This document shows, in pieces, positions 11,357 through 24,789 of a stretch of DNA of 64,000 bases (the first letter of the stretch is position 1; each line of letters opens with the position of its first letter). The stretch comes from an uncultured Klebsiella sp. GTDB taxonomy: Bacteria > Verrucomicrobiota > Verrucomicrobiia > Limisphaerales > SXTU01. The notes under the pieces are model-generated. The model was not told the origin of the DNA. It did no database searches and saw nothing but the letters and a program-made list of their open reading frames with translations. The translations under genes were made by a program, and so were the position numbers. The stretch covers positions 5,503 to 69,502 of the forward strand of contig CAZQEW010000001.1 in the NCBI GenBank assembly GCA_964591495.1. The letters run 5' to 3'.

Positions 11357-11587
11357 GGGACCAGTGGGGCAAGAGTGGTAAAGGATTCAGGAGAAAGTCA
11401 GGCCGAAATGCGTGGTCTCTCGGTTTGGTAAGATAAAACGACACAAGGTATTCGTTAAAGTTCCCTCTTGGCATCGTTGGGAAACGCCAATAATTCGTTC
11501 AGAAAAGTTTGCGCCCGGGATTATCTGCATTCGCAGGGATAGTGTAACCACTTGATTATCAAATGTTAATACGATTTTAAAATAAAA

Positions 11588-11654
11588 GTGGGTTCCTTGT
11601 TGACCCGTGTGGGGTGAAAGGAATACAAAGTGGGGCGCAGTGGGTTGCTGTGGG
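11588..11654 (+). promoter_or_regulatory. Array of five phased GTGGG direct repeats (putative MraZ operator) in the AT-rich dcw promoter region
   Basis: GTGGG starts at 11588, 11609, 11630, 11640 and 11650 (spacings 21, 21, 10, 10 bp). Two copies have the form AAAGTGGG. The array lies 35 nt upstream of the mraZ ATG, inside the AT-rich stretch at about 11380-11600 (..cttgattatcaaatgttaatacgattttaaaataaaa..). Confidence 0.6.
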
Positions 11655-11688
11655 TTAATGTTGTTTGGGTGGCCCATTGGCATGGCAA

Positions 11689-12150
11689 ATGTCTGCAATA
11701 ACCGAAACTGGGCGTGTCACCTTCAAGGGTGAATACGACTTCGGCTTGGATGACAAGCGGCGGGTGCAAATCCCCGCCAAATGGCGTCCAGCCGAGGGCA
11801 CGGTCCTTTCGGTGCATGTCTGGAAAGCCGAGGGCCAGCAGCATCCCTGTTTGCTGGTCTTGCCGCCCGCTACGGCGCGGAAGCTGGAGGAAAAACTAGA
11901 AGGCATGTCCTTCAGTGACCCAAAGGCCGAGGCACTCCGGCGCCTGCTGGGCGCGGATTGTGACGATCTGACATTGGACTCGGTCGGGCGCATTTGCCTC
12001 CCGGAGAAGCTGGCGAACAAGGCCCAGCTTGGCAAGAAGGCCATTCTGGTCGGCCTGTTCGACCGGTTTCAAATCTGGAATCCCGAGCACTACCGCGACA
12101 CGAACGTGAGCGATGAGGTGGTGCGCCCGGATGCCATCAAACTGATTTAA
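11689..12150 (+). CDS. mraZ: Transcriptional regulator MraZ
   Basis: The track ORF 11665..12150 contains an ATG at 11689 giving MSAITETGRVTFKGEYDFGLDDKRRVQIPAKWR...LDSVGRICLPEKL. These are two SpoVT/AbrB-like MraZ half-domains with the DxxxR motif. The gene is first in the dcw cluster. Confidence 0.85.
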   Translation: MSAITETGRVTFKGEYDFGLDDKRRVQIPAKWRPAEGTVLSVHVWKAEGQQHPCLLVLPPATARKLEEKLEGMSFSDPKAEALRRLLGADCDDLTLDSVGRICLPEKLANKAQLGKKAILVGLFDRFQIWNPEHYRDTNVSDEVVRPDAIKLI

Positions 12151-12152
12151 CC

Positions 12153-12701
12153 ATGGGCCTCCTCAAACTGCTCAACACCGGCAAAAGCCTCGTGGGCTTA
12201 AAGGACAAGCTCATCACGAAAGTGCCGCTCGGCGAGGTGGTTCCGAATTTCAACACCCGGCCTGGGGCGATGAGCCGCATGGCCTCGGCGGTGCGGGGGC
12301 GACGACGGGGCGGCGACTCGTTCGCTGACGAGGCCCGTCCGGCAGCACGCCCTGGTGGGCCCAAGATCCGCAGCACGGTCGCTCCCGATCCAACGCTGCC
12401 CAAGAACCCCTTTGCGCGCCCCGTCCCCAAGCGGCGTCAGCCGAAAACCGACGAGGCGTTGCTGGTCCGGGAGCAGGCTCCGTTTGCGACCCGTGTCGAA
12501 TCGGCCTTCGTGCCGCCCTCTGCGGCGAAGAGCTGGGCTACGCGGCTGCGGCTGGTCCGGGACTCGGTCCGGCAACCGGTTACACGCAAGCTCAAAGTGC
12601 CCGCCCGTCTGGTGAAAGCATTCGGCGAGCAGGCGGCGGCGGTCCGGCGGCGGGTGCCGCGCGGCCCCCTTGCAGCCCGGCGGCAACTGGCGGCGGCGTG
12701 A
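12153..12701 (+). CDS. Hypothetical Arg/Pro/Ala-rich protein inserted between mraZ and rsmH
   Basis: ORF 12153..12701 (182 aa). Its ATG lies 2 nt after the mraZ stop, and third-codon positions are GC-rich like flanking genes. The N-terminus MGLLKLLNTGKSLVGLKDKLITKV looks amphipathic and the rest is low-complexity and basic. I recognised no family. Confidence 0.5.
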   Translation: MGLLKLLNTGKSLVGLKDKLITKVPLGEVVPNFNTRPGAMSRMASAVRGRRRGGDSFADEARPAARPGGPKIRSTVAPDPTLPKNPFARPVPKRRQPKTDEALLVREQAPFATRVESAFVPPSAAKSWATRLRLVRDSVRQPVTRKLKVPARLVKAFGEQAAAVRRRVPRGPLAARRQLAAA

Positions 12702-12715
12702 TCGGCGCATGAAAC

Positions 12716-13648
12716 GTGACCAGCTTCATCCACAACCCGGTGATGGTGGAGGAAGTGTTGGCCGCGCTCCGGCCGGGGGCGGGCGGGACGTTCGCCGACG
12801 GGACACTGGGTTCGGGTGGGCACGCGGCAGCGGTGCTGCGGGCCAGCGCACCGACTGGATGGCTCTTTGGCTGCGATCGCGATGGCGACGCCCTTGAGGC
12901 GGCGCGCGCGCGGCTGGCGGCGGAGTTCGCGGGCCGGTTCGAGCTGCGGCGCGGGAACTTTGCGGAACTGTCGGGCTGGATCCCGGCGGGTGGGTGTGAC
13001 GGGGTGCTGCTGGATCTCGGCGTGAGCTCCCCGCAGCTGGACCGGGCGGAACGCGGGTTCAGCTTCCAGCAGGACGGACCGCTGGACATGCGGATGGATG
13101 CGCGGCAGGCGCTGACGGCGGCGGAGCTGGTCAACTCCGCGAGCGCCGACGAATTGGCTAAGATTTTCCGGGACTACGGTGATGAGCCGGATGCGCGGCG
13201 GATGGCGCGGGCCATTGAGCGCGACCGGCAGGTGCGGCGGTTTGAGACCACGCGGCAGTTGGCGGAGCTGATGGAACGAATCTCGCCGCGGCACGGGCGC
13301 AAGGCGCATCCGGCCACGCGCGTGTTCCAGGCGTTGCGCATCGCGGTGAATGACGAGATCGGCTCGCTGCGGCGCGGGCTGGCAGGTGCGGTGCGGTTGC
13401 TCAAGCCCGGCGGGCGGCTCGCGGTGATCACGTTCCACTCGCTTGAAGACCGCGTGGTGAAGGAATTCGGGCGCGAGCTCGCGAGGGACTACGTGGTGCC
13501 CGGCGAAGTGGACGTGCCGGAGCTGCGGCAGCCGCGGGCGCCGGTGCTCCGGTTGGTGACGCGGAAGGCGATCTGCGCCGGCGACGCGGAAGTTGCGGCG
13601 AACCCGCGGGCGCGCAGCGCCCAACTGCGGGTGTTTGAGAAGATTTAG
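12716..13648 (+). CDS. rsmH: 16S rRNA (cytosine1402-N4)-methyltransferase
   Basis: ORF 12716..13648 (GTG start). HNPVMVEEVL...FADGTLGSGGHA...DLGVSSPQLD...RGFSF..DGPLDMRM...SLEDR.VK are canonical RsmH/MraW motifs. Confidence 0.92.
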   Translation: MTSFIHNPVMVEEVLAALRPGAGGTFADGTLGSGGHAAAVLRASAPTGWLFGCDRDGDALEAARARLAAEFAGRFELRRGNFAELSGWIPAGGCDGVLLDLGVSSPQLDRAERGFSFQQDGPLDMRMDARQALTAAELVNSASADELAKIFRDYGDEPDARRMARAIERDRQVRRFETTRQLAELMERISPRHGRKAHPATRVFQALRIAVNDEIGSLRRGLAGAVRLLKPGGRLAVITFHSLEDRVVKEFGRELARDYVVPGEVDVPELRQPRAPVLRLVTRKAICAGDAEVAANPRARSAQLRVFEKI

Positions 13649-13659
13649 GGCGGCGGAAT

Positions 13660-14097
13660 ATGGCAAAAAATCGAAAAAACAGCGCAGGCGGCGGGGTCCG
13701 GTTCGGCCCGGCGGTGAAGGCCTTTTTCCTCTGCCTGGTCATCGGCTCGCTGGCGGTCTGCTACGTATGGCAGAAGCGGCAGATTTACTCCCTCGGAGTC
13801 AAGACGGAGCAGCTCGAAAAACGGCTCGCCCAGCTCAAGCGTGAAAACGAGATGCGCCGCCAGCAGATGGCGATGCTGCAATCTCTGCCCTACCTCGATG
13901 CGCGCGTGAAGGAGCTTAAGCTGGGCCTGGGCGTGCCCACGCCCGACCAGATTCTCACGCTGGTCGAGGGGCAGGTGGTGCGCACCGCCCCGCGTCAGGC
14001 CCCGGCCCCCGTCCTCACGGCGATGGCATTCCCGGCCGAGAAGACCTACCTCGCCTACGCCACGAAGCCGCTGCCGCCCCCCGCCCGTAAACGCTGA
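13660..14097 (+). CDS. ftsL: Cell division protein FtsL-like (bitopic, coiled coil)
   Basis: ORF 13660..14097. It has a short basic N-terminus, one TM (AVKAFFLCLVIGSLAVCYVW) and then a heptad-like region (LGVKTEQLEKRLAQLKRENEMRRQQMAML). Its position between rsmH and ftsI fits FtsL. Confidence 0.7.
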   Translation: MAKNRKNSAGGGVRFGPAVKAFFLCLVIGSLAVCYVWQKRQIYSLGVKTEQLEKRLAQLKRENEMRRQQMAMLQSLPYLDARVKELKLGLGVPTPDQILTLVEGQVVRTAPRQAPAPVLTAMAFPAEKTYLAYATKPLPPPARKR

Positions 14098-14115
14098 CCG
14101 CTCCACCAATCCACT

Positions 14116-14181
14116 ATGAACCTCACAGCCATCCGCCACGAAGACGACGAGTCCGACTTCGAAATGAGCTTTGCCGCCTGA
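14116..14181 (+). CDS. Candidate 21-aa acidic micro-ORF overlapping the ftsI start
   Basis: Found by hand, since it is below the track cutoff: atgaacctcacagcc...gccgccTGAtg encodes MNLTAIRHEDDESDFEMSFAA. Its TGA (14179..14181) shares one nucleotide with the ftsI ATG (14181..14183). 17 of 21 third positions are G/C. Confidence 0.25.
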   Translation: MNLTAIRHEDDESDFEMSFAA

Positions 14182-16313
14182 TGTCCGCCCGGGTGACAGA
14201 CCAGGAAGTCACGCTCCAGCCGTTCCAAAACCGACGGCTGGTGCTGATGGTATTCCTGTTGTTTGTCGCCTTCTGCGGTCTCGGCTACCGGCTCGTGGAC
14301 CTTCAGGTCCTCCAGCATGAGGCGTTGAAGGCCAAGGCGGTGGCTCAGGTCCGCCAAACCCGGATGCTGGAGCCCCGGCGTGGCGACATCCGGGACGCGC
14401 GCGGCACCCTCCTCGCCACCAGCCGCCCGGTAAAGACGGTCTTTGCTGATCCGGTCCTCATTGGGGACCATCAGGCGGTGATCGCCCGCGCGCTCGCGCC
14501 GATCTTCCAGGTTCCGGAGGCCGAGCTGCACAAGCGCCTGCTGCCGCAGATCAACATGCGCACGAATCCGGTCGCCTCGCTCGACGGCATGCTGCTCACG
14601 AATCGTCACATCGTCGTCGTGGACGGTTACGTTGCAGTGCCCCGCGGCGTGCTGCACACAAACCGCTTCATCGCGTTGCACAATGGTGCGGTCACGACCA
14701 ACTACTACGCCGTCGCCACCAACTCGCCGCTCGTCCTCTCCAACAGCTACGTAGTCATCACCAACCAGCTTGTCGTCACGACGAACCGCCACGTCGTGCT
14801 TGCGCACAAGGTCCCGCTGGAGCAGTGGACGCAGATCACCGCCGCGATGGCCAAACTCGCTTTCGGCGTGGATGAGAAGAAGCTCCCGCGCAAGGAAAAG
14901 GCCTTCTACCGCGAGCTGCGCGCGAAGGCCATCAACTGCGACCCGGTGGATGACCAGATCCGCATTTACCCGAACCAATCCCTCGCTGCCCATGTGCTCG
15001 GCTTCATGGGCCCGGTCACCCGCACCAACGCGACCACCGGGGCCGTGTTCACCCAGACCGTCGGTCTCGACGGCCTGGAACGCACCCTCAACGACAAGCT
15101 CAGCGGCACGCGTGGATGGCTCGAAACCGAAGTCGGCGGCAACCGCGCCGAGCTTGTGATGAACCGCCAGCAGGAGGTGGAAGCCCAGGACGGTCTCAAC
15201 GCGGTGCTCACGCTCGATGCCGCCATGCAGCACATCCTCGAAACGGAGCTGGGCGAGATCATGGCGAAGTTCAACCCCGTCAGCGCCACCGCCATCGTCT
15301 TGCGCCCGCGCACCGGCGAAATCCTCGCGATGGGTTCGCGGCCCACCTACGACCCCAATCAGCCGGGCAAGACCCCCGTCGCCGCGCTCAAAAACCGCAT
15401 GATTGTGGACAGCTACGAGCCAGGCTCGACCGCCAAAATCATCTCCATCGGGGCCGCTTTGAACGAGGGCCTGGCGACGTTGGGGGAGCGGATCGATTGC
15501 GAGCGCGGCACCTGGTTCTACCGGGGCCGGCCGCTTCACGACCATGACCCGCTGGGCGTTTTGTCAGTCGAGGAAGTCATGATGAAGTCCTCCAACATCG
15601 GGTCCGCGAAAATCGGTCTGCGGCTCGGAGACGCCGGGTTGTTCCGCTATCTGACCGCGTTCGGCTTTGGCGAACGCACCGGAGTGCTGCTGCCGGGCGA
15701 GGCGCGCGGTCAGCTCATCCCGTTGAAAAGGTGGGATGGCATCACCGGCTCACGCGTGTCCATCGGCCACTCGGCGGCCGCGACACCGCTCCAGATGGCG
15801 ATGGCGATGGCGGCCATCGCCAACGGCGGCAAGCTCATGCGCCCGCTGCTCTTGGACCGCCTCGAAGACGCCGATGGCAAGGTCGTCTTGAAGAACCAGC
15901 CGCAGGTCGTGCGACAAGTCTTCAAGCCGGAAATCTCGAAGCAAGTTGTCGAGACCCTCAAGCGCGTCGTGTCCACCGATGGCACCGCCGCCGGTGCGCG
16001 CCTCGGCTACTACACCGCCGCTGGCAAGACCGGCACGGCGCAGAAGCTGGTCAACGGCGAATACAGCCACGCCAAGTATTTCTCTTCCTTCATTGGCTTC
16101 TTCCCGGCGGACAACCCGGAACTGCTCATCTACGTAGCCGTGGATGAACCGGAGAAAGCCAAAGGATATTACGGCGGCATCGTGGCCGCGCCGGCATTCA
16201 AGAACATCGCCCTGCGCGCGGCGAACCACCTTAACATCCGGCCGGAGACGGCCGTGGGCGAACCCGTGACCGGCTTGGCGCAGGCGCCGCTGGCCAACAA
16301 CCGGACCAATTGA
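14181..16313 (+). CDS. ftsI: Penicillin-binding protein 3 / FtsI (class B transpeptidase) with lineage-specific N-terminal-module insertion
   Basis: ORF 14181..16313. It has a TM anchor (LVLMVFLLFVAFCGLGY) and transpeptidase motifs S-T-A-K (EPGSTAKI), S-S-N (MMKSSNIG) and K-T-G-T (AGKTGTA). Residues about 126-208 are an atypical TN-repeat insertion. Confidence 0.92.
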   Translation: MSARVTDQEVTLQPFQNRRLVLMVFLLFVAFCGLGYRLVDLQVLQHEALKAKAVAQVRQTRMLEPRRGDIRDARGTLLATSRPVKTVFADPVLIGDHQAVIARALAPIFQVPEAELHKRLLPQINMRTNPVASLDGMLLTNRHIVVVDGYVAVPRGVLHTNRFIALHNGAVTTNYYAVATNSPLVLSNSYVVITNQLVVTTNRHVVLAHKVPLEQWTQITAAMAKLAFGVDEKKLPRKEKAFYRELRAKAINCDPVDDQIRIYPNQSLAAHVLGFMGPVTRTNATTGAVFTQTVGLDGLERTLNDKLSGTRGWLETEVGGNRAELVMNRQQEVEAQDGLNAVLTLDAAMQHILETELGEIMAKFNPVSATAIVLRPRTGEILAMGSRPTYDPNQPGKTPVAALKNRMIVDSYEPGSTAKIISIGAALNEGLATLGERIDCERGTWFYRGRPLHDHDPLGVLSVEEVMMKSSNIGSAKIGLRLGDAGLFRYLTAFGFGERTGVLLPGEARGQLIPLKRWDGITGSRVSIGHSAAATPLQMAMAMAAIANGGKLMRPLLLDRLEDADGKVVLKNQPQVVRQVFKPEISKQVVETLKRVVSTDGTAAGARLGYYTAAGKTGTAQKLVNGEYSHAKYFSSFIGFFPADNPELLIYVAVDEPEKAKGYYGGIVAAPAFKNIALRAANHLNIRPETAVGEPVTGLAQAPLANNRTN

Positions 16314-16314
16314 C

Positions 16315-16560
16315 TTGAACGCCATTGAAACAGACACACTGACAGCGACAGCACCCACCTTGGGAAGCCGCCGCGCGAGCGCCCTCCGTCGCGCGCCCGC
16401 CGGATCGCTGGTGCTGGCCCAGAGCTGGGTGCCGGTGTCTGTCTCCCGACCGCTGCACGCGGACCTGCGTCAGAGCACGCTGCGCGCCGCGCAAGCCTTC
16501 ACCCTGTTGTCGAGCGAGCTGGCCACCCGACGTGGCGAGGCGAAACCACCCACCGCCTGA
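16315..16560 (+). CDS. Hypothetical small protein (81 aa, TTG start) filling the ftsI-murE gap
   Basis: Track ORF 16315..16560. It starts 1 nt after the ftsI stop and ends 4 nt before the murE ATG. About 78% of third positions are G/C by my count. It has no recognisable motif, so it may be a non-coding spacer. Confidence 0.3.
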   Translation: MNAIETDTLTATAPTLGSRRASALRRAPAGSLVLAQSWVPVSVSRPLHADLRQSTLRAAQAFTLLSSELATRRGEAKPPTA

Positions 16561-16564
16561 CACC

Positions 16565-18067
16565 ATGCTCTTGAAACAACTTGTCGAGGGCCTGCCGATG
16601 CTGCGTTCGGAAGGCCCACTGGAGCGAACGGTGGCGGGAGTTACCGCTGACTCCCGCCGCCTTTCGCCGGGCATGGTCTTCGTGGCCGTGCCGGGCGAAA
16701 ACCACGACGGTCATGACTTCATCAGCACGGCGATTGACCGGGGGGCCGCCGCCGTCATCTGCGAGCGCAACGGCTTTTCCTCCGGGCGCGCGACGAAGGT
16801 CAAGGTTGCTGATGCGCGTGCCGCCTTGGCCATCGCCGCGGCGAATTTTCACGGGCATCCGAGCCGCAAACTCAAGGTCATCGGCGTCACCGGCACGAAC
16901 GGCAAGACCACGGTGAGCTTCATGGTGAAGCACATCCTTGAGGCCGCCGGAATTCACGCCGGCTTGCTGGGCACCATCCGCTACGAGATTGGGGACCGCG
17001 TGCTGCCCGCCCAGCGCACCACGCCGGAGTCGTCCGAGATTCAGTCGTTCATGGCGCAGATGATTCGGGCGGGCTGCGAGGCCTGCGTGATGGAGGTCAG
17101 CTCGCACGCGCTCGCGCAGAAACGCGTGCACGGCGTTGACTTTGACCTCGGCATTTTCACAAACCTCACGCAGGACCATCTCGACTTCCACGGCGACATG
17201 GAGAGCTACTACGAGGCGAAGAAGCAGCTCTTCACCTCGATTCAGTCCGGCACCAAGCCCGGCGCGGCGGTGCTGAACATTGACGACTCCTTCGGCTCCC
17301 GGCTCGCGCGCGAGACGAGCGCCGAAGTGCAACTCACATATGGCCTCGACGAGGCGGCGAAGCTGCGGGCGACGGACTTCAAACTCGGCCATGGCGAGAC
17401 CCGCTTCACCGCTGAGACCCCGGCGGGCCGGTTCCCCGTGACGATGCCGCTCATCGGGCGGCACAACATTTACAACGCGCTGGCTGCTATCGGCGCTGGC
17501 ATCGCGCTGCGCTTGCCCATCGCAAGGATTCAGGCGGCGCTGCGCACCATGCCTCCCGTGCCGGGCCGGCTCGAACGCATTTCCGGCGGGCAGCCCTTCA
17601 GTGTGTTCGTGGACTACGCGCACACCGACGACGCGCTCCAGCACGTCCTCCGCACCGTGCGGGAGATCACCCCTGGCCGCGTGCTGCTCGCCTTCGGCTG
17701 CGGTGGGGCACGCGACACCGACAAGCGCGCGAAGATGGGCAAGGCCGCCGCGCTGCTCGCGGACTACACCATCATCACCAGTGACAACCCGCGCCGGGAA
17801 TCGCCCGCTTCTATTGCTGCGCAGATCGAGTCTGGCTTTCGCACGGTTCGTCCCGATCAGTTCAGCGTGCAACTCGACCGCGCGCGGGCCATTCGCCAGT
17901 TGCTCCGCCTCGCCCAGCCCGGTGACACCGTGCTCATCGCCGGCAAGGGGCATGAGACCTACCAGGAATTCGAGGACACAGTCGTCCCGTTTGATGACCG
18001 CGTGCATGCGGAGGAAGCGCTGGAAGAACTTGGCTGGACTGAACACCCGTTGGCCAAAGCCGCTTAA
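16565..18067 (+). CDS. murE: UDP-N-acetylmuramoyl-L-alanyl-D-glutamate--2,6-diaminopimelate ligase
   Basis: The track ORF 16532..18067 contains an ATG at 16565 giving MLLKQLVEGL.... Mur ligase P-loop GVTGTNGKTT is present, and the DNPR motif (TSDNPRRE) indicates meso-DAP specificity. Confidence 0.92.
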   Translation: MLLKQLVEGLPMLRSEGPLERTVAGVTADSRRLSPGMVFVAVPGENHDGHDFISTAIDRGAAAVICERNGFSSGRATKVKVADARAALAIAAANFHGHPSRKLKVIGVTGTNGKTTVSFMVKHILEAAGIHAGLLGTIRYEIGDRVLPAQRTTPESSEIQSFMAQMIRAGCEACVMEVSSHALAQKRVHGVDFDLGIFTNLTQDHLDFHGDMESYYEAKKQLFTSIQSGTKPGAAVLNIDDSFGSRLARETSAEVQLTYGLDEAAKLRATDFKLGHGETRFTAETPAGRFPVTMPLIGRHNIYNALAAIGAGIALRLPIARIQAALRTMPPVPGRLERISGGQPFSVFVDYAHTDDALQHVLRTVREITPGRVLLAFGCGGARDTDKRAKMGKAAALLADYTIITSDNPRRESPASIAAQIESGFRTVRPDQFSVQLDRARAIRQLLRLAQPGDTVLIAGKGHETYQEFEDTVVPFDDRVHAEEALEELGWTEHPLAKAA

Positions 18068-18069
18068 AC

Positions 18070-18321
18070 ATGGCCCGCAACGCAAAAGAAGAAATGGCCT
18101 GGAAGCCGCGCCGAATGCGCACGGAGGATGTGCAGGCCCGGGTGGCGCATTTGCAGCGCAACCTGCCGCCGGTGGTGCAGGAAGTGTTCGGTGGCGAGGA
18201 ACCCCGCGCGACAGGTCTCGTGAAGAAGGTTGAGCCGCAACCCAATCCCGTGACGCCAAAGAAAAAATCCAAGTTCGCCGTGCTGCTCTGGGAGCCGCGC
18301 GGTGACGGAGCCGGCCGCTAA
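18070..18321 (+). CDS. Hypothetical small protein (83 aa)
   Basis: ORF 18070..18321. Its ATG lies 2 nt after the murE stop, and its TAA directly abuts the ATG of the next gene (taaATG at 18319..18324). It is Lys/Pro-rich (PNPVTPKKKSKF). I recognised no family. Confidence 0.45.
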   Translation: MARNAKEEMAWKPRRMRTEDVQARVAHLQRNLPPVVQEVFGGEEPRATGLVKKVEPQPNPVTPKKKSKFAVLLWEPRGDGAGR

Positions 18322-19053
18322 ATGGAAACTCGCCCACATCTGCTCGGAGTGGTGGCCGGCTTGGCCTTGGCCGCCGGTCTGGTCTTTGCCTCGCTCGTGG
18401 TGGCGCGCACCTGGCAGCGCATCGCCGAGTCGCAGGCGATCTCCGTCACCGGTTCAGCCCGGCGGCTCGTGAAGTCGGACCTGATCGTATGGACCGGAAG
18501 TTTTTCCACCGAAGCCAAAACATTGCTGGCTGCCCAGCAAGCGCTCAAGGCCGACCTGGTCAAGGTCGAGGCCTTCCTGAAAATGCAGGCGGTGACGAAC
18601 TATCAGGTTGGCCCGATTGGAATTCAGGAACTGCGCCAGCGCGTGAACAGCGACGAAGGCGTGCGGATCGTTGGCTACAATCTAAGCCAGAACGTGACGG
18701 TGACCTCGCCCGAAGTGGAGCGCATCGCCGCGCTGGACCAGCAGACCGCGAAGCTGGTCGAACAAGGCGTGCAGTTCACCACCAGCGCCCCGCGTTACAT
18801 CTACACCAAGGCGGGCGAGGCAAAGATCGAAATGCTCGCTGAGGCCACCAAGGACGCGCGGGCCCGGGCGGAGCAGATTGCCTCTCAAGGCGGGCGCACG
18901 GTGAAGGAACTCCGGGCGGCAAGGATGGGAGTCTTCCAGATTACGCCTCTTTACTCGACCCGCGGACATTCCAGCTGGGAGGGGGAGAACGACATGAGTT
19001 CCTTGGACAAGAGCATCATGGCGGTGGTGAACGCGACTTTCTCGATGAACTGA
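18322..19053 (+). CDS. SIMPL-domain (DUF541) membrane-anchored protein
   Basis: ORF 18322..19053. An N-terminal TM (LLGVVAGLALAAGLVFASLVV) is followed by ISVTGSARRLVKSDLIVWTGSFSTEAKTLLAAQQALKADLVKVEAFLK...AKIEMLAEATKDARARAEQIA, the pattern of SIMPL/BP26-like proteins. Confidence 0.72.
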   Translation: METRPHLLGVVAGLALAAGLVFASLVVARTWQRIAESQAISVTGSARRLVKSDLIVWTGSFSTEAKTLLAAQQALKADLVKVEAFLKMQAVTNYQVGPIGIQELRQRVNSDEGVRIVGYNLSQNVTVTSPEVERIAALDQQTAKLVEQGVQFTTSAPRYIYTKAGEAKIEMLAEATKDARARAEQIASQGGRTVKELRAARMGVFQITPLYSTRGHSSWEGENDMSSLDKSIMAVVNATFSMN

Positions 19054-19065
19054 AGCCACAACACC

Positions 19066-19302
19066 ATGAGCACCACCGGCACCCCCCAGCAGTCAGCCCG
19101 TCCGCTCCGCAACGTGGATCTTTGCCGTCAGGTCAGCGCGCTGCGCGCGGAGCCGCCCGTTGCTCCTCCCCCCGTTTTCCCCGATGCCGACCCGGGGCCA
19201 GCCGCGCTGAGCGCCAACGCCGCTCTGCGACAGCTGTTTCGCCGCCCGGTGACGGTGCCTTGGCTGGCCGGTTCCGGGGCTTATCGCTCGCTTGCCGAAT
19301 AA
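19066..19302 (+). CDS. Hypothetical small protein (78 aa) overlapping the murF start
   Basis: ORF 19066..19302. Its TAA (19300..19302) shares a nucleotide with the murF ATG (19302..19304), forming TAATG. GC3 is about 74% by my count, versus about 63% for the alternative extended murF frame over the same DNA. I recognised no family. Confidence 0.4.
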   Translation: MSTTGTPQQSARPLRNVDLCRQVSALRAEPPVAPPPVFPDADPGPAALSANAALRQLFRRPVTVPWLAGSGAYRSLAE

Positions 19303-20765
19303 TGGACCCACGCACGCTCAAGTTTGTTGCCGAGGCCACGGCCGGAGAAATCCTCCGTGGCAGTGCGGACCTGCCGCTGCGGCGCGTGTGCACGGATTCG
19401 CGGCAGGCGCAGCCGGGTGACTTGTTCATCGCCATCGCCGGCGAGAAGTTTGATGGGCACGCATTCATCACCGAGGTCGCGGCGAAGGGCGTTGCGGCCG
19501 TCGTGGTCGAGCGCGCTCGTGCGGGCGAATTCCGGTTGCCGCCCATTGCCAACGACACTACGGACGGTGGCGGGAAGCCACCAGCACTGGTCGTCGTCGC
19601 CAACACTCGCGTGGCTTACGCCCAGCTCGCCGCGCGCTACCGGCAGGATTTCGACATGCCGGTCATCGCCGTTGGCGGGTCGAATGGCAAGACGACCACG
19701 AAGGAACTCATAGCGGCCGTGCTCCGCGAACGAGGCCCGGCGCTGTGGAGCGAGGCGAGCTTCAACAATGATATCGGCGTGCCGCACACCCTGCTGCGGT
19801 TGGAGCGACAGCACCGGGGCGCAGTGTTGGAGGTTGGCACGAACCATCCGGGTGAACTCGCGCCCCTCGTGAAGCTCATCCAGCCGCGCTACGGCGTCAT
19901 CACGAGCATCGGCCGGGAGCACCTGGAATTCTTCGGCGATGTGAACGGCGTGGCGCAGGAGGAAGGCTGGCTGGCCGAGCTGTTGCCCGCGGACGGGGTG
20001 CTTTTCGTGAACGGGGACTGCGCCGAGATGGACGCCGTTGCGGCGCGGACGCGGGCGCGGGTGGTGCGCGTCGGGTTTGGGCCGCGCAACGACTGGCGCG
20101 CGGCCGAAGTCCGGCTCGATGAACGGGGCGTCGCCTTTCAGGTGAGCAGCCCGCACGCGGCCTTTAGCGGCGCGTATCGCATCGGGCTGCTGGGACGGCA
20201 TCAGGTTTTGAATGCACTGCTGGCAGGGGCTGTAGGAGCCGAGGTCGGTCTGAGCAGTGATCAAGTCAGGCGGTCTTTGGCGGGATGCACCCCGCCAAAG
20301 ATGCGCCTGCAACTTTGGGAGGTGAACGGCGTGCGGGTGCTCGACGACGCCTACAATGCGAACGCGGATTCGATGCTTGCGGCTTTGCAGACATTGCACG
20401 ACCTGCCGTGCGCGGGCCGCCGCGTGGCGGTGCTGGGTGACATGGCGGAACTGGGGGGGCACAGTGTCGCAGCCCATGTTGAAGTGGGCCGGCGCACGGC
20501 TGAGTTGGGCGTCAACCGCCTGTTTGCCGTGGGCAAGATGGCCGGACACGTCGCGGGCGCGGCCAGGGCCGCTGGCTTGAGTGCGGTCACGGAAATTCCC
20601 GAGGTGGCCAGCGCGGGGGCAGCCGTTCTCCGCGAGCTGCGGTCGGGGGATCTGGTGCTGTTGAAGGCTTCCCGATCAACCCGGCTGGAACGGGTGGGCG
20701 AGGTCATCCGTGGCGGAATGACAGCCGCTGCCGGGTCGAATCCACCCGGAGCCCAACTCAACTGA
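19302..20765 (+). CDS. murF: UDP-N-acetylmuramoyl-tripeptide--D-alanyl-D-alanine ligase
   Basis: The track ORF 19122..20765 has an implausible Arg-rich extension. ATG at 19302 gives MDPRTLKFVAEATAGEILRG...DSRQAQPGDLFIAIAGEKFDGHAFI and P-loop GGSNGKTTTKE. Confidence 0.92.
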   Translation: MDPRTLKFVAEATAGEILRGSADLPLRRVCTDSRQAQPGDLFIAIAGEKFDGHAFITEVAAKGVAAVVVERARAGEFRLPPIANDTTDGGGKPPALVVVANTRVAYAQLAARYRQDFDMPVIAVGGSNGKTTTKELIAAVLRERGPALWSEASFNNDIGVPHTLLRLERQHRGAVLEVGTNHPGELAPLVKLIQPRYGVITSIGREHLEFFGDVNGVAQEEGWLAELLPADGVLFVNGDCAEMDAVAARTRARVVRVGFGPRNDWRAAEVRLDERGVAFQVSSPHAAFSGAYRIGLLGRHQVLNALLAGAVGAEVGLSSDQVRRSLAGCTPPKMRLQLWEVNGVRVLDDAYNANADSMLAALQTLHDLPCAGRRVAVLGDMAELGGHSVAAHVEVGRRTAELGVNRLFAVGKMAGHVAGAARAAGLSAVTEIPEVASAGAAVLRELRSGDLVLLKASRSTRLERVGEVIRGGMTAAAGSNPPGAQLN

Positions 20766-20770
20766 GGACC

Positions 20771-20932
20771 ATGAGCGTGAAAAACCACCGGGACCAGCAG
20801 CGCGCGGCCAGGAAGCTGGCACGGGAGCTGGCCAACAATGCACGCCGGCCGGGCTTCCTGGTGCGTCTGTGCCACTGGGAGGAACTGTGCTCCCGGCAAG
20901 GTTTCTTAACGCTGCGATACCGGCGCGATTAG
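20771..20932 (+). CDS. Candidate 53-aa basic small ORF filling the murF-mraY gap
   Basis: Found by hand, since it is below the track cutoff: MSVKNHRDQQRAARKLARELANNARRPGFLVRLCHWEELCSRQGFLTLRYRRD. Its ATG lies 5 nt after the murF stop and its TAG lies 3 nt before the mraY ATG. 42 of 53 third positions are G/C. Confidence 0.3.
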   Translation: MSVKNHRDQQRAARKLARELANNARRPGFLVRLCHWEELCSRQGFLTLRYRRD

Positions 20933-20935
20933 CAG

Positions 20936-22090
20936 ATGATCTATTACCTCGCCCAATGGCTGCAGGAGCAGGTGGCAGGCACCGCGTGGGCCGATGCCCT
21001 CTCGGCGCTGCGGGTGTTTCGTTACATCACCGTGCGCAGCGCCGGGGCGGCGATCTCGGCATTGCTATTGAGTCTGTGGCTCGGGCCGCTGGTCATCGCG
21101 TGGTTGAAGGAACTCAAGTTCGGTCAGGAGTATCTGGACAAAGCGCAGGAGGCAGGCACCACCACCAACCAGGTTTTCACCAAGAAGGGCGTGCCCGGCA
21201 TGGGCGGCATCCTCATCGTGCTGGTCGTGGATCTGACCGCGTTGATCTGGGCGCAGTGGAATGAGTTCATCGTTCTGACACTGGTGTCGCTGCTGGTGCT
21301 CGCCGCCCTCGGGTTTTACGACGACTACAAGAAGCTGACCGAGCAGAAGAGCGCGGGTGCCGCGGAAAACGTGAAGCTCATCGTGCAGTTCGGGCTGGCG
21401 GGCTTCATCGCCTGGATGCTTTGGCTGATGCCGGAGACCAGGGCGCTGATCGCTGAAATACAGGTGCCCTTCTTCAAGCACGCGGTGCTGACCGATGCGG
21501 CCTGGATCGGGGCCGCCATCACGGTTTGTGCCATCGTCGGCAGCAGCAATGCGGTGAACATCACCGACGGACTCGACGGATTGGCCATCGGCTGCACGCT
21601 GATCGTGACAACGGTGTTCCTGATCTTCACCTACATCGCTGGCAACGCGATCATTGCCAAGTATCTCTTTGTGCCCCACGTGCCCGGGGCGGGGGAACTC
21701 ACCGTTTTCTGCGCCGCGATGCTGGGGGCAAGTCTGGGATTTCTCTGGTTCAACTGTCATCCGGCGCAGGTTTTCATGGGCGATACCGGTTCGCTTGCGC
21801 TCGGTGGCGTGCTCGGGATCATGGCGGTGCTGATCCACCAGCCGTTTGTGCTGGTGATTGCGGGCGGGGTCTTTGTGGCGGAGATCGGCTCGGTGATGAT
21901 TCAGCGTGGCTGGTTCAAATACACGCGGCGGCTCTACGGCAAGGGCAACGAGCGGCGCGTATTCCTGATGGCGCCTGTGCATCATCATTTTCAGAAGCTC
22001 GGCTGGTATGAATCCCAGGTTGTCACGCGCTTTTACATCCTATGCATCGTCTGCGCGGTGCTTGCGCTGGCGACGCTCAAGTTGCGTTAA
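20936..22090 (+). CDS. mraY: Phospho-N-acetylmuramoyl-pentapeptide-transferase
   Basis: ORF 20936..22090. It is polytopic, with NAVNITDGLDGLA, GDTGSLALGG and APVHHHF motifs. Confidence 0.95.
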   Translation: MIYYLAQWLQEQVAGTAWADALSALRVFRYITVRSAGAAISALLLSLWLGPLVIAWLKELKFGQEYLDKAQEAGTTTNQVFTKKGVPGMGGILIVLVVDLTALIWAQWNEFIVLTLVSLLVLAALGFYDDYKKLTEQKSAGAAENVKLIVQFGLAGFIAWMLWLMPETRALIAEIQVPFFKHAVLTDAAWIGAAITVCAIVGSSNAVNITDGLDGLAIGCTLIVTTVFLIFTYIAGNAIIAKYLFVPHVPGAGELTVFCAAMLGASLGFLWFNCHPAQVFMGDTGSLALGGVLGIMAVLIHQPFVLVIAGGVFVAEIGSVMIQRGWFKYTRRLYGKGNERRVFLMAPVHHHFQKLGWYESQVVTRFYILCIVCAVLALATLKLR

Positions 22091-23527
22091 ATGTTCAGGC
22101 TTCAAGACAAAGCAGTGTTGGTGATCGGCCTCGGCCTCAGCGGCGCGGCGGCGGCCCGACTGCTGGTTTCGCGCGGGGCGCACGTCACGGCGATGGACAA
22201 CTCCGACACGCCCGCACTGCGACGCGAGGCGGAGGAGTTGCGCGGCCTTGGCGTGCGGGTGGAGTTGGACCTGCGTCTCCCGCCGGCCGGGCCTTTTGAC
22301 CTCGCGGTGGTCAGCCCGGGCGTGCCGCTGCATTCATCGCTCGTCAAGGACCTGCGCCAGCGTGAGGTTCCCGTCATCGGGGAGTTGGAACTCGGCTGGC
22401 AGCAGGCCGTCTGCCTCAACGTCTCCGTCACCGGCACGAACGGAAAAACCACGACGACCGAGCTCATCGAGCACGTCCTCACGCATTGCCACAAGCGCAC
22501 GCTCGCGGCGGGCAACATCGGCAAGCCGCTGTGCTCCGTTGCCGAAGATTCAAAGCAGCTCGACTACCTCACGCTCGAAGTCAGCTCGTTTCAGCTCGAG
22601 ACGATTCGCTTCTTCCGTCCGGCGGTCGCGGTGTTGCTGAACCTCACGCCCGACCACCTCGACCGGCATCACACCATGGCCGACTACGCGCGGGCCAAGG
22701 CGCGCCTCTTCGAGAACCAGCAACCGTTCGACTGGGCCATCGTGCAGACCGAGGCGCTTGCAATGCTCCGCTCGCTCGGCGTGAAGGTGCCGTCCAAGCT
22801 CATCACCTTCAGCGCACAGAACCGGCGCGCGGACATCCATCTCGACCGCTCGCTCATCATCAGCCGCATGGAAGATTGGGTGGGCCCTCTGATAGACATG
22901 GAGAAGACCCACTTGCGCGGTCCGCACAACGCCGAGAACGTGATGGCCGCGCTTGCCGTCGGGCGTGTATTGCGGCTGCCGTTGGACGAGATGGTCGCGG
23001 CCATAATGAGCTTCAAACCGGGAGCGCACCGTTGTGAACTCATCGCGGAAATCAACGGCATCAAGTTTGTCAACGACTCGAAAGCCACCAACCTGGATGC
23101 CGTGGCCAAGGCACTGCAGACCATTCCGGCCTCGCAACCCGGGGAAACGAACGTCCTGCTCATCGCGGGCGGGCGCGACAAGGGCCTCGACTACCATGAC
23201 CTCGGACCACTGTTGGCGCAGCGCGTCAAGCATGCGATTCTGGTCGGCGAGGCACGGGAAAAACTGCGCGCCGCGTGGAGCCTCTTTACCCCTTGCACGC
23301 TCGCGGATTCATTGTTAGAAGCGGTCAACGAAGCCGTGAAAAATGCGGCCCCCGGGGACGTTGTTTTGCTGTCTCCGGCCTGTTCGAGCTTCGATTTGTT
23401 CCGTGACTATCGCCACCGGGGTGAAGTGTTTCGACAAGCGGTTGAGCAGTTGCAGCGCACAACTAATGGCGGTGTCGCGGATAATGCCCCTATGAGTGGG
23501 GGCGGCTGGGGCAGCCGGCAGCAGTGA
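22091..23527 (+). CDS. murD: UDP-N-acetylmuramoylalanine--D-glutamate ligase
   Basis: ORF 22091..23527 (taaATG junction with mraY). It has an N-terminal Rossmann motif VIGLGLSGAAAA, P-loop VTGTNGKTTTTE, and NDSKATN. It carries a short extra C-terminal tail. Confidence 0.92.
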   Translation: MFRLQDKAVLVIGLGLSGAAAARLLVSRGAHVTAMDNSDTPALRREAEELRGLGVRVELDLRLPPAGPFDLAVVSPGVPLHSSLVKDLRQREVPVIGELELGWQQAVCLNVSVTGTNGKTTTTELIEHVLTHCHKRTLAAGNIGKPLCSVAEDSKQLDYLTLEVSSFQLETIRFFRPAVAVLLNLTPDHLDRHHTMADYARAKARLFENQQPFDWAIVQTEALAMLRSLGVKVPSKLITFSAQNRRADIHLDRSLIISRMEDWVGPLIDMEKTHLRGPHNAENVMAALAVGRVLRLPLDEMVAAIMSFKPGAHRCELIAEINGIKFVNDSKATNLDAVAKALQTIPASQPGETNVLLIAGGRDKGLDYHDLGPLLAQRVKHAILVGEAREKLRAAWSLFTPCTLADSLLEAVNEAVKNAAPGDVVLLSPACSSFDLFRDYRHRGEVFRQAVEQLQRTTNGGVADNAPMSGGGWGSRQQ

Positions 23528-23641
23528 ACAGCGCGACAGCGGATCGAGCGTAAAAAATTTAACGAGACATAAGCAAAAAATTTCGCCGGGGAATGGCCAG
23601 CTCCGGGGATCAGACAACGCAGCCACCAAAGCACACACCAC

Positions 23642-24586: not shown

Positions 24587-24789
24587 GCGGGCAAAGCCAC
24601 TTAACCTATCACCCCAATCACCGATGCGCCGGCTGACTGGCGAAGAAGGAAGCAAACTGGGACACTCAGTCTCGGCCAGCTTCGTCGCCTCGGCCGGGCT
24701 CGGTTTAGGTGGGTGTGTAAGCCGCCCTGGTAAACGGTTGGGTGGGTATGGCTGCGCATGCATTCTCGTTTGCTGATTAACTCAAGCCT

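What the first reader, a model, noticed from the sequence alone, without database searches (positions are those of the whole stretch)
14116..20932. Every gap between canonical dcw genes is filled by a translationally coupled small ORF
Between ftsL and mraY, every space between known genes is exactly occupied by an ORF with no recognisable family. These are 14116..14181 (21 aa, TGATG overlap with ftsI), 16315..16560 (81 aa, 1 nt after ftsI and 4 nt before murE), 18070..18321 (83 aa, 2 nt after murE, taaATG into the next gene), 19066..19302 (78 aa, TAATG overlap with murF), and 20771..20932 (53 aa, 5 nt after murF and 3 nt before mraY). With the 182-aa ORF after mraZ, this means no non-coding gap exceeds 18 nt over about 11.8 kb (mraZ to murD). 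My hand counts give 74-81% G/C at third positions for these ORFs, as in the flanking genes. The pattern is either a family of undescribed micro-proteins stoichiometrically coupled to Mur/Fts enzymes, or spacers kept open so ribosomes traverse them to maintain translational coupling. Two of the five fall below the 60-aa ORF-track cutoff and would be missed by standard annotation.
Basis: partly seen in the sequence, partly recalled or inferred. Interest (0 to 1): 0.65.

Follow-up and report, generated by a model that had tools for sequence, protein, structure and literature searches.

The report
Five small genes inside dcw operon
In this uncultured freshwater Verrucomicrobium, every space between the cell-wall and division genes from ftsL to mraY holds a real, conserved small protein gene (21-83 aa) whose start and stop touch its neighbours; none has a described family and their functions are unknown.

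Summary
All five ORFs are at the stated coordinates, their GC3 is 0.73-0.80, and no gap from mraZ to murD exceeds 18 nt.

They are genes, not chance ORFs. In up to 13 related Limisphaerales/Pedosphaera contigs (MurE 78-93% identical), each ORF keeps its start, stop, frame and junction geometry. Indels are multiples of three. Divergence is concentrated at third codon positions: dN/dS is 0.06-0.32 against the closest relative, and dS equals that of the flanking genes. Only the annotated frame is stop-free in all relatives.

The five are unrelated to each other. They have no Pfam, NCBIfam, PDB or Rfam match.
- s21, s81, s83 and s78 occur only in this genus-level clade. An exhaustive search of 1.84 billion proteins found 19 hits, all of them the same ORFs in relatives.
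- s53 belongs to an order-wide family of about 50-70 aa, always between murF and mraY.

Relatives that lack these ORFs join the canonical genes directly, so a kept-open spacer is not required.

Four of the five are already called "hypothetical protein" in public data. Only s21 is missed.

Function is inferred only. The most likely reading is accessory or regulatory peptides made by termination-reinitiation.

The parts
14116..14181 (+). s21: 21-aa acidic ORF (MNLTAIRHEDDESDFEMSFAA). Its stop overlaps the ftsI ATG (TGATG).
   Evidence: It is intact in 9 distinct relatives, always with an ATG start and the TGATG overlap, and has two independent 3-nt indels. Minimum changes by codon position are 9/4/21 (p=0.001). 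Positions 9-16 stay D/E-rich. dN/dS against L162 is 0.06. It is not in any public protein set.
16315..16560 (+). s81: 81-aa basic ORF between ftsI and murE. It has a variable, disordered N-terminal part and a conserved C-terminal core of about 55 aa (RRAPxRSLVLAQSWVPxSVS...RQSTLRAAxAFTLLSSELATRRG).
   Evidence: In 8 of 9 close relatives an NTG start lies 1-2 nt after the ftsI stop and the ORF ends 4 nt before the murE ATG. Lengths are 74-111 aa and the frame is always kept. dN/dS is 0.22-0.6, and 0.31 against L162. It is the only stop-free frame in 8/8 relatives. Ten further family members appear among 1.84e9 representatives. AF2 predicts a helix at 47-75 with block-mean pLDDT of about 87-90 over residues 51-70.
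18070..18321 (+). s83: 83-aa basic ORF starting 2 nt after the murE stop. Conserved N-terminus (MARxxxEEMAWKPRRLRKEDVQARVAHLQKNLP) and C-terminal KSKFAVLLWEPR, with a variable middle.
   Evidence: It is present in L162, L001, L081, L004, L170, L171, L173 and L168. A diverged ORF at the same position in L082 was matched by eye only; tblastn and HMM searches did not recover it. Indels are multiples of three. dN/dS is 0.12-0.46, and 0.19 against L162. It is the only frame stop-free in all relatives.
18322..19053 (+). SIMPL/DUF541 gene (243 aa) inserted between s83 and s78. It is context, not one of the five.
   Evidence: Pfam PF04402, E=1.4e-24. It is present at the murE-murF junction in L082, L168, L170, L006, L009 and L013. 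It is absent in L162, L001, L081, L171 and L173, where s83 and s78 are adjacent.
19066..19302 (+). s78: 78-aa Pro-rich ORF whose TAA overlaps the murF ATG (19302).
   Evidence: It is 78 aa with no indels in L162, L001 and L081, and 76 aa in L173. It is also in L171, where the gene caller gave a shorter 65-aa TTG-start call. The TAATG overlap is kept in 4/4. dN/dS is 0.15-0.24. Codon-position differences against L001 are 17/13/38.
20771..20932 (+). s53: 53-aa basic ORF between murF and mraY. It belongs to an order-wide family with motif PxFLxRLxGW...[RH]xD-stop.
   Evidence: Close relatives are 53-70% identical with dN/dS 0.12-0.33. The family HMM hits 18 related loci at E<1e-4, always between murF and mraY on the + strand. 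There are 30 protein clusters in public data, all labelled 'hypothetical protein' from Verrucomicrobia. The C-terminal Asp is invariant despite GAT/GAC and stop-codon variation. AF2 predicts two helices, pLDDT 68.
12153..12701 (+). orf182: 182-aa very basic ORF between mraZ and rsmH.
   Evidence: It is 94% identical in L162 and 69-76% in L001, L004, L171 and L173. dN/dS is 0.09-0.22. Only the first 29-41 aa are kept in L002, L083 and L082. The first 18 aa are recognisable in distant relatives.
13660..14097 (+). ftsL-like gene (145 aa)
   Evidence: Weak DivIC/FtsL_2 Pfam matches, plus its position and conservation.
14181..16313 (+). ftsI (PBP3, 710 aa)
   Evidence: PBP_dimer and Transpeptidase domains on the orthologue in L162. 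It is 83-95% identical in close relatives.
16565..18067 (+). murE (500 aa)
   Evidence: Three Mur ligase Pfam domains.
19302..20765 (+). murF (487 aa)
   Evidence: Three Mur ligase Pfam domains. The ATG is placed by the TAATG overlap.
20936..22090 (+). mraY (384 aa)
   Evidence: Glycos_transf_4 on the orthologue. It is 89-98% identical in relatives.
11556..11583 (+). The only + strand sigma-70-like promoter match in 11000-25000. It lies in the AT-rich region upstream of mraZ.
   Evidence: GC falls to 0.45 at 11400-11700. Terminator-like sites are not more frequent than chance.

Best explanation
The five ORFs are genuine protein-coding genes of five unrelated, undescribed small-protein families. 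They are embedded in the mraZ-to-murD transcription unit of a Limisphaerales/Pedosphaera-like Verrucomicrobium.

Shown:
- Each is kept as an intact ORF in related species.
- Its peptide sequence is under purifying selection, weaker than on the Mur/Fts enzymes.
- Its start lies 0-20 nt after the upstream stop, and its stop lies within 4 nt of, or overlaps, the downstream start.
- s21, s81, s83 and s78 are confined to one genus-level clade. s53 belongs to a family spread across the order, always between murF and mraY.

Inferred:
- The genome shows no Shine-Dalgarno enrichment and the junctions are stop/start contacts. So the ORFs are probably translated by termination-reinitiation, which passes ribosomes from gene to gene. 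Any DNA inserted at a junction would then survive best if it is itself a tightly abutting ORF.
- The peptides are soluble. Four are basic and one is acidic, and the two that were modelled (s53 and s81) are partly helical or disordered. They most likely act as small accessory or regulatory partners of the neighbouring enzymes.
- s53 would partner MurF or MraY.
- The acidic s21 would act as a leader peptide tuning how many ribosomes reach ftsI.

Period-three divergence, with dS equal to the flanks:
- Against L162, dN/dS is s21 0.06, s81 0.31, s83 0.19, s78 0.24 and s53 0.32, compared with 0.02-0.15 for the canonical genes.
- dS is 0.33-0.69 for all.

Frame and strand:
- Only the annotated frame is stop-free in every relative for s81, s83, s78 and s53.
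- The antisense shadow frame has stops in 6/8, 3/5, 3/4 and 1/4 relatives.
- For s21, minimum changes by codon position are 9/4/21 (p=0.001), with two 3-nt indels.

s53 family:
- 30 public protein clusters, all hypothetical, 51-69 aa.
- 18 syntenic loci.
- C-terminal conservation is at the amino-acid level.

Chance and operon context:
- The exact-fill probability is about 3e-8 jointly.
- Across the order, 29 of 68 dcw gaps of 60-400 nt are bridged by one tight ORF, against 4.8 expected.
- The scan found no internal + strand sigma-70-like promoter, and terminator-like sites are at chance level.
- SD-like motifs occur upstream of 4/43 genes, against a 13% background. None is visible upstream of any cluster gene.
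- No ORF has a transmembrane segment.
Against: - There is no expression, ribosome-profiling or peptide evidence.
- All relatives are metagenome assemblies.
- Sample sizes for s78 (5-6 sequences) and s53 within the close clade (4-6) are small, and pairwise dN/dS values are not independent.
- s81 and s78 have atypical codon-position GC (GC2 0.62-0.65), and one gene caller skipped s81.
- The functional part is pure inference.
- AF2 models are low to moderate confidence. No partner prediction could be run.
- 39 of 68 comparable gaps in the order are not bridged by a single tight ORF, so relay translation is not obligatory.
- The SD analysis used crude start assignments.
Confidence: 0.72

Rival explanations
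1. Pure relay spacers. The ORFs exist only so that ribosomes traverse GC-rich inserts and reinitiate on the next gene. The peptides themselves are functionless by-products.
For: - The stop/start geometry is the most rigidly conserved feature.
- The N-terminal part of s81 and the middle of s83 vary freely in sequence and length but never lose the frame.
- In L082 and L083 the extra 113 nt between s53 and mraY is again filled by a tightly abutting ORF of about 35 aa.
- The gap upstream of ftsW is open from a conserved ATG to 13 nt before ftsW, in three genomes, with little peptide conservation.
- The genome is poor in SD motifs.
Against: - dN/dS is 0.06-0.5, and conserved peptide blocks persist through many synonymous changes.
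- s53 keeps its motif across an order, and keeps it where it no longer abuts mraY.
- Lineages without the inserts simply juxtapose the canonical genes, so nothing forces the spacer to exist.
- 39 of 68 comparable gaps are not bridged.
Confidence: 0.15
2. Chance ORFs or gene-caller artefacts in GC-rich non-coding spacers, or shadows of antisense genes.
For: - At 64-70% GC, some + frame is open over 90% of such a gap in 55-89% of shuffles.
- Long antisense ORFs overlap s81, s83 and s78.
- The antisense frame that shares third positions shows similarly low pN/pS.
Against: - Starts and stops are conserved to the nucleotide across 78-93% relatives.
- Indels occur only in multiples of three.
- Divergence has a period of three.
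- Antisense frames are interrupted in most relatives.
- The joint exact-fill probability is about 3e-8.
- No Rfam match suggests an RNA element instead.
Confidence: 0.04
3. Regulatory leader peptides (uORFs). The act of translating them, not the released peptide, controls the downstream gene. s21's acidic run (EDDESDFE) would cause intrinsic ribosome destabilisation and so gate ftsI. s53's invariant C-terminus would act at termination to gate mraY.
For: - s21 has 6 acidic residues within positions 9-16 of a 21-codon ORF. Acidity is conserved by D/E interchange in 9 sequences, and the stop overlaps the ftsI ATG in all.
[quoted passage not shown] A nascent chain occupying the exit tunnel stabilises the translating ribosome (bioRxiv 10.1101/2021.02.02.429294). 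That risk is greatest near the N-terminus is my own recollection, not checked in those papers.
- s53 ends in an invariant Asp-stop, 3 nt before the mraY ATG in most lineages.
- In more distant relatives the same ftsL-ftsI gap holds a conserved RNA hairpin instead. This suggests the junction is a regulatory point.
Against: - There is no experimental evidence.
- The non-acidic parts of s21 (IRH, FEMSFAA) are equally conserved.
- s53 keeps its sequence in L082 and L083, where its stop is 113 nt from mraY.
- s81, s83 and s78 show no arrest-like features.
Confidence: 0.2

Closest known systems
Operon-embedded small subunit genes such as cydX (cydABX) and kdpF (kdpFABC) of E. coli (own knowledge)
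   Same: Very short ORFs sit inside an enzyme operon, abut or overlap neighbouring genes, are easily missed by annotation, and are expressed with their partners.
   Different: CydX and KdpF are single-pass membrane peptides with demonstrated binding to their complexes. The five ORFs here have no hydrophobic segment, no sequence similarity to them, and no demonstrated partner.
Acidic leader peptides acting by intrinsic ribosome destabilisation, e.g. MgtL (PMC9718836; bioRxiv 10.1101/2021.02.02.429294; the MgtL example is own knowledge)
   Same: s21 is a very short ORF with a dense D/E run early in the chain, lying directly upstream of and coupled to a downstream gene.
   Different: There is no homology and no proline interspersion. 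The coupling is by a TGATG overlap rather than an attenuator structure. The effect is untested.
Small bitopic divisome proteins FtsL/FtsB/DivIC encoded in dcw clusters
   Same: They are small proteins encoded in the dcw cluster next to ftsI.
   Different: FtsL/FtsB have a transmembrane helix and a periplasmic coiled coil. The window has its own ftsL (13660-14097). The five ORFs lack transmembrane segments and give no Pfam match.
Natural Mur ligase fusions (MurE-MurF chimeras; PMC10214165, abstract only)
   Same: Tight physical or genetic linkage of neighbouring dcw products. In one metagenome contig (L130) the s53-family ORF is in frame with MurF with no intervening stop.
   Different: Here the linkage is translational abutment of separate ORFs, not fusion. 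The L130 case is a single unverified contig.
Taxonomically restricted (orphan or possibly de novo) genes
   Same: Four of the five have no homologue outside a genus-level clade among 1.84e9 representative proteins. They are short, partly disordered, fast evolving and rich in indels. Two have non-genic-like GC2.
   Different: Outgroups have no spacer at these junctions at all. So there is no syntenic non-coding precursor to demonstrate de novo birth, and the origin of the inserted DNA is unknown.

Membership tests
Any curated protein family (Pfam-A, NCBIfam) or solved structure | Significant profile match | tested here: not met
   There were no Pfam hits at E<=1 for s21, s81, s83, s78, s53 or orf182, and no NCBIfam hits. 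PDB profile searches for s53 and s81 gave a best E of 0.5-0.6.
Any Rfam RNA family (alternative to coding) | Covariance-model match in 11000-24000 | tested here: not met
   No matches at E<=1.
Uncharacterised murF-mraY small-protein family (clusters P0001-P0030, all 'hypothetical protein') | Length 50-70 aa, basic N-terminus, core P-x-F-L-x-R-L, C-terminal [RH]-x-D-stop | tested here: met
   s53 aligns over its full length. P27, F29, L30 and L33 are nearly invariant and D53 is invariant. The profile hits have E down to 5e-19.
Uncharacterised murF-mraY small-protein family | Position on the + strand between murF and mraY, stop about 3 nt before the mraY ATG | tested here: met
   In the window, s53 starts 5 nt after the murF stop and ends 3 nt before mraY. 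The layout is the same in 18 loci.
Protein-coding gene under purifying selection (all five) | Frame, start and stop conserved; indels in multiples of three; third-position-biased divergence; dN/dS<1; other frames interrupted | tested here: met
Protein-coding gene (all five) | Direct evidence of translation (ribosome footprints, peptides) | not testable with these tools
   No expression data are available for these uncultured genomes.
Termination-reinitiation (translationally coupled) operon genes | Stop and next start overlap or lie within a few nucleotides; no independent SD | tested here: met
   Distances are -1 to 5 nt at 8 of the 10 junctions flanking the five ORFs. The other two are 18 nt before s21 and 12 nt before s78. 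This is conserved in relatives. SD-like motifs are not enriched (with crude start calls).
Termination-reinitiation operon genes | Polar effect of upstream premature stops on downstream translation | not testable with these tools
   This needs reporter genetics.
IRD-type acidic leader peptide (for s21) | Dense D/E run within the first ~20 residues of a short ORF preceding the regulated gene | tested here: met
   EDDESDFE at residues 9-16. Acidity is conserved in 9 sequences.
IRD-type acidic leader peptide (for s21) | Demonstrated premature translation abortion that alters downstream expression | not testable with these tools
   This needs in vitro translation or reporter assays.
De novo originated gene (s21, s81, s83, s78) | Restricted taxonomic distribution | tested here: met
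   There are 19 hits among 1.84e9 representatives, all the same ORFs in the clade. There are none in 6-frame translations of about 140 more distant dcw loci.
De novo originated gene | Orthologous non-coding sequence in outgroups | tested here: not met
   Outgroups have 2-30 nt at these junctions, so no precursor sequence is visible.
SIMPL/DUF541 (gene 18322-19053) | Pfam PF04402 match above the gathering score | tested here: met
   88 bits against a cutoff of 25.2, E=1.4e-24.

The most novel reading that the evidence does not exclude
In this SD-poor, GC-rich lineage the dcw operon is translated as a ribosome relay. That relay makes gene junctions a nursery for new genes. Any DNA inserted there must become a tightly abutting ORF to avoid polarity, is therefore translated from the outset, and then acquires function.

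On this reading:
- s21, s81, s83 and s78 are young products of the process.
- s53 is an old product that became a fixed MurF/MraY partner.
- s21 additionally works as an acidic, ribosome-destabilising leader that sets the FtsL:FtsI ratio. It would replace the RNA hairpin found at the same junction in sister lineages.
Probability: 0.15. Interest if true: 0.75.

Novelty: new member of a known kind. Interest (0 to 1): 0.45.

Why it matters
The dcw cluster is one of the most studied and most conserved gene arrays in bacteria, and its gene list is usually treated as closed.

Here a whole genus-level clade carries five extra conserved peptides, or six with orf182, interleaved with ftsL, ftsI, murE, murF and mraY. 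One of them, s53, is conserved across an order and always sits at the MurF-MraY handover. That is the step where the cytoplasmic peptidoglycan precursor passes to the membrane.

If these peptides bind or regulate their neighbours, they would be new lineage-specific modulators of cell-wall synthesis and division in Verrucomicrobiota.

The set also offers a clean comparative case for how small genes arise and persist inside an essential operon. It shows as well that a 21-codon ORF under clear selection is still invisible to standard pipelines.

Tried and rejected
- Word-indexed search with the concatenated peptides. It returned only P0031, a 295-aa ORF on a 0.84x-coverage contig. Its PD-(D/E)XK domain is truncated (model positions 1-75 of 247) before the s81 core. 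I judged it a chimeric assembly. The exhaustive phmmer search was used instead.
- s81 core as a repeat or mobile element. There are no other copies in the window or in any locus.
- Paralogy among the five. hhalign probabilities are at most 7%.
- Antisense genes. These were rejected because of stops in relatives.
- RNA element instead of coding. There is no Rfam hit, and the period-three divergence argues against it.
- A frameshifted ftsW at 23642-24776. This was wrong. 23642-24586 is a separate conserved gene, a LysM protein by Pfam on its orthologues, and ftsW is 24790-25923.
- A universal rule that every dcw gap in the order is bridged by one tight ORF. Only 29 of 68 are.
- Conservation of the s53 C-terminus as a nucleotide-level initiation signal for mraY. 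This was rejected because codons and stop codons vary synonymously.
- Fold searches on the AF2 models. These were not run, because one- or two-helix models at pLDDT 63-68 would give meaningless matches.
- HMMs of s21, s81, s83 and s78 found nothing in about 140 distant loci.

Full report
**What the window is.** MurE, MurF and the rest of the cluster place the window in uncultured Limisphaerales/Pedosphaera-type Verrucomicrobiota. MurE is 92% identical to MAG JBAYGL010000202 and 93% to a Logan contig from SRR22077903.

The + strand reads, in order:
- mraZ (11665-12150)
- orf182 (12153-12701)
- rsmH (12716-13648)
- ftsL (13660-14097)
- s21 (14116-14181)
- ftsI (14181-16313)
- s81 (16315-16560)
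- murE (16565-18067)
- s83 (18070-18321)
- a SIMPL/DUF541 gene (18322-19053)
- s78 (19066-19302)
- murF (19302-20765)
- s53 (20771-20932)
- mraY (20936-22090)
- murD (22091-23527)

The only + strand promoter-like site lies in the AT-rich stretch before mraZ. Terminator-like sites are at chance level.

**Checking the observation.**
- The murF ATG is at 19302.
- Tight packing stops at murD. The next gaps are 114 and 203 nt.

An open frame across a GC-rich gap is not remarkable in itself; it appears in 55-89% of dinucleotide shuffles. An ORF that both starts within 20 nt of the upstream stop and ends within 8 nt of the downstream start appears in only 1-10% of shuffles per gap. The joint probability is about 3e-8.

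**Are they genes?** I assembled related dcw loci from three sources:
- species-representative genomes;
- JGI metagenomes;
- exact-protein look-ups.

Thirteen contigs have MurE 78-93% identical to the window: L001-L004, L081-L083, L155, L162, L168, L170, L171 and L173.

In these contigs:
- s21 is intact in all nine distinct sequences. It always has an ATG start and a TGATG overlap with ftsI, and shows two independent 3-nt indels.
- s81 is present in all 13 contigs that cover the junction. In 8 of the 9 measured, an NTG start lies 1-2 nt after the ftsI stop and the ORF ends 4 nt before the murE ATG. Lengths range from 74 to 111 aa, and the frame of the conserved C-terminal core is never lost.
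- s83 starts 1-3 nt after the murE stop. s78 ends in TAATG with murF. s53 starts 2-6 nt after the murF stop.

Against the closest relative, L162, dN/dS is 0.06 (s21), 0.31 (s81), 0.19 (s83), 0.24 (s78) and 0.32 (s53). Synonymous divergence is 0.33-0.69, the same as in the flanking genes, whose dN/dS is 0.02-0.15. Wider comparisons give 0.12-0.6.

Across all six frames, only the annotated one is free of stops in every relative for s81, s83, s78 and s53, and it has the lowest pN/pS. The antisense frame that shares third positions mimics the ratio but is interrupted in most relatives. For s21, the minimum number of changes by codon position is 9/4/21 (p=0.001).

**How widely they occur.** The five are unrelated to each other (hhalign). 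They match nothing in Pfam, NCBIfam, PDB sequences or Rfam.

An exhaustive phmmer scan of 1.84 billion representative proteins, using s81+s83+s78+s21 as the query, gave 19 hits. All were 31-110 aa and at least 44% identical, that is, the same ORFs in clade members: ten s81, six s83, three s78 and no s21. HMMs found none of these four in about 140 more distant Pedosphaerales dcw loci. In those loci ftsI-murE and murE-murF are usually 2-30 nt apart.

s53 is different. A family with the core P-x-F-L-x-R-L-x-G-W and a C-terminal [RH]-x-D lies between murF and mraY in 18 loci with MurF only 47-66% identical. In most of them the stop is 3 nt before the mraY ATG. The family forms 30 public clusters, all annotated as hypothetical Verrucomicrobia proteins.

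The invariant terminal Asp is encoded by GAT or GAC and followed by TAA, TAG or TGA. So the constraint is on the peptide, not on the nucleotides.

**Presence and absence.**
- L083 has murE overlapping murF, with no s83, SIMPL or s78.
- L162, L001, L081, L171 and L173 have s83 and s78 adjacent, without SIMPL.
- The window, L082, L168 and L170 have SIMPL after s83.
- In L082 and L083, s53 no longer abuts mraY. The extra 113 nt is filled by another tightly abutting ORF of about 35 aa.

Across the order, 29 of 68 dereplicated dcw gaps of 60-400 nt are bridged by a single tight ORF, against 4.8 expected. The other 39 are not bridged.

**What they are likely to do.** None has a hydrophobic segment. 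s21 is strongly acidic (pI 4.1), and the other four are basic (pI 10.4-11.7).
- AF2 gives s53 two helices (pLDDT 68).
- AF2 gives s81 a disordered N-terminal half and one confident helix at 47-75.

No gene in the cluster has a visible Shine-Dalgarno motif. Such motifs are not enriched upstream of 43 crude gene calls in the window.

The best-supported reading is therefore that these are real small proteins expressed by termination-reinitiation within the operon. The geometry is conserved because it is how they and their downstream genes receive ribosomes. Their peptide sequences are conserved because the peptides, or their nascent chains, do something.

Binding to neighbouring enzymes is inference only.
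- The sole hint is one contig (L130) in which the s53-family ORF is in frame with MurF.
- For s21, the conserved D/E run early in a 21-codon ORF that overlaps the ftsI start fits the published phenomenon of intrinsic ribosome destabilisation (PMC9718836; bioRxiv 10.1101/2021.02.02.429294). This is a hypothesis, not a finding.

**Rivals.**
- Pure spacers. This reading is contradicted by peptide-level constraint and by relatives that do without the inserts.
- Chance or antisense ORFs. This reading is contradicted by frame conservation.
- Leader-peptide control. This remains open for s21, and less so for s53.

**Status in public data and novelty.** The exact s81, s83, s78, s53 and orf182 sequences are already in NCBI, JGI, ENA and Logan protein sets as hypothetical proteins. 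s21 is not.

I found no description of such ORFs in the two dcw and Verrucomicrobia papers I opened or screened. That is a limited search.

The kind of thing, small proteins embedded in an enzyme operon and translationally coupled, is known. These families, and their one-per-junction arrangement in the dcw cluster, are not described. I rate the finding as a new member of a known kind, of moderate interest.

Noticed in passing
L113:4307-4381, L117:731-805, L085:5004-5078 and about 35 other loci (not in the window): In more distant Pedosphaerales, the ftsL-ftsI gap carries a conserved hairpin RNA-like element of about 65 nt (TTTTGGCCGCCGC...GAGGAACCGAT...GGGCGGCTGGCCTTTT), just upstream of the ftsI ATG. 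It is sometimes present in two tandem copies. RNAalifold gives 20 pairs, 7 of them with compensatory changes, and an invariant GAGGAACCGA loop. It has no Rfam match and is absent from the window, which has s21 at that junction instead.
   Followed up: partly
window 18322-19053: The SIMPL/DUF541 gene at the murE-murF junction is a presence/absence polymorphism. It is present in the window, L082, L168, L170, L006, L009 and L013, and absent in the closest relative L162 and in L001, L081, L171, L173 and L083. Its identity tracks the housekeeping genes (86% in L082), which suggests repeated loss.
   Followed up: partly
window 12153-12701: orf182 after mraZ is a very basic (pI 12), conserved gene with dN/dS 0.09-0.22. 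Only its first 29-41 residues survive in L002, L083 and L082. Its first 18 residues (MGLLKLLNTGKSLVGLKD) are recognisable in distant relatives. It has no Pfam or NCBIfam match.
   Followed up: partly
L130:1467-3035: The s53-family ORF is in frame with MurF with no intervening stop (...LRGAPEN-MNRKKNANRR...PGFLVRLIGWRR...FRHD*). This may be a natural fusion or an assembly error. An A9 run lies just downstream of the junction.
   Followed up: partly
L082:8607-8717 and L083:8605-8712: Where s53 is 113 nt from mraY, a second ORF of about 35 aa (MGFEINIWIKIVRRSRIGPP... / METESKIRLKITSRSRVGRP...) starts 2-3 nt after the s53 stop and ends 3 nt before mraY.
   Followed up: no
window 24624-24776: A 50-aa ORF (MRRLTGEEGS...) runs from a conserved ATG to 13 nt before the ftsW ATG (24790). 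Its first ~10 residues are conserved in L082 and L083. The rest is not conserved but stays open through to ftsW in all three.
   Followed up: no
window 23642-24586: A 314-aa membrane-anchored protein is inserted between murD and ftsW. Its orthologues in L171 and L173 hit Pfam LysM. It is preceded by a 114-nt AT-richer gap that is not bridged by an ORF.
   Followed up: partly
L161:1388-1577 (protein P0031): A copy of the s81 core, 73-79% identical, sits inside a 295-aa ORF whose PD-(D/E)XK domain is truncated. The contig is 1.8 kb at 0.84x coverage and has no dcw genes. It is most likely a chimeric assembly, but that is not proven.
   Followed up: partly
protein P0044 (72 aa): A called protein joins a MurE C-terminal fragment (TIITSDNPRRESPAAIAAQ) to the C-terminal half of s78. 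This may be a deletion variant or a misassembly.
   Followed up: no
window 14181-16313 (FtsI residues ~120-200): FtsI carries an insertion rich in repeated T-N-containing motifs (e.g. LTNRHIVVV, HTNRFIAL, VTTNYYAVATN, VVTTNRHVV) between the membrane anchor and the PBP dimer domain. Distant relatives align only from about residue 200.
   Followed up: no
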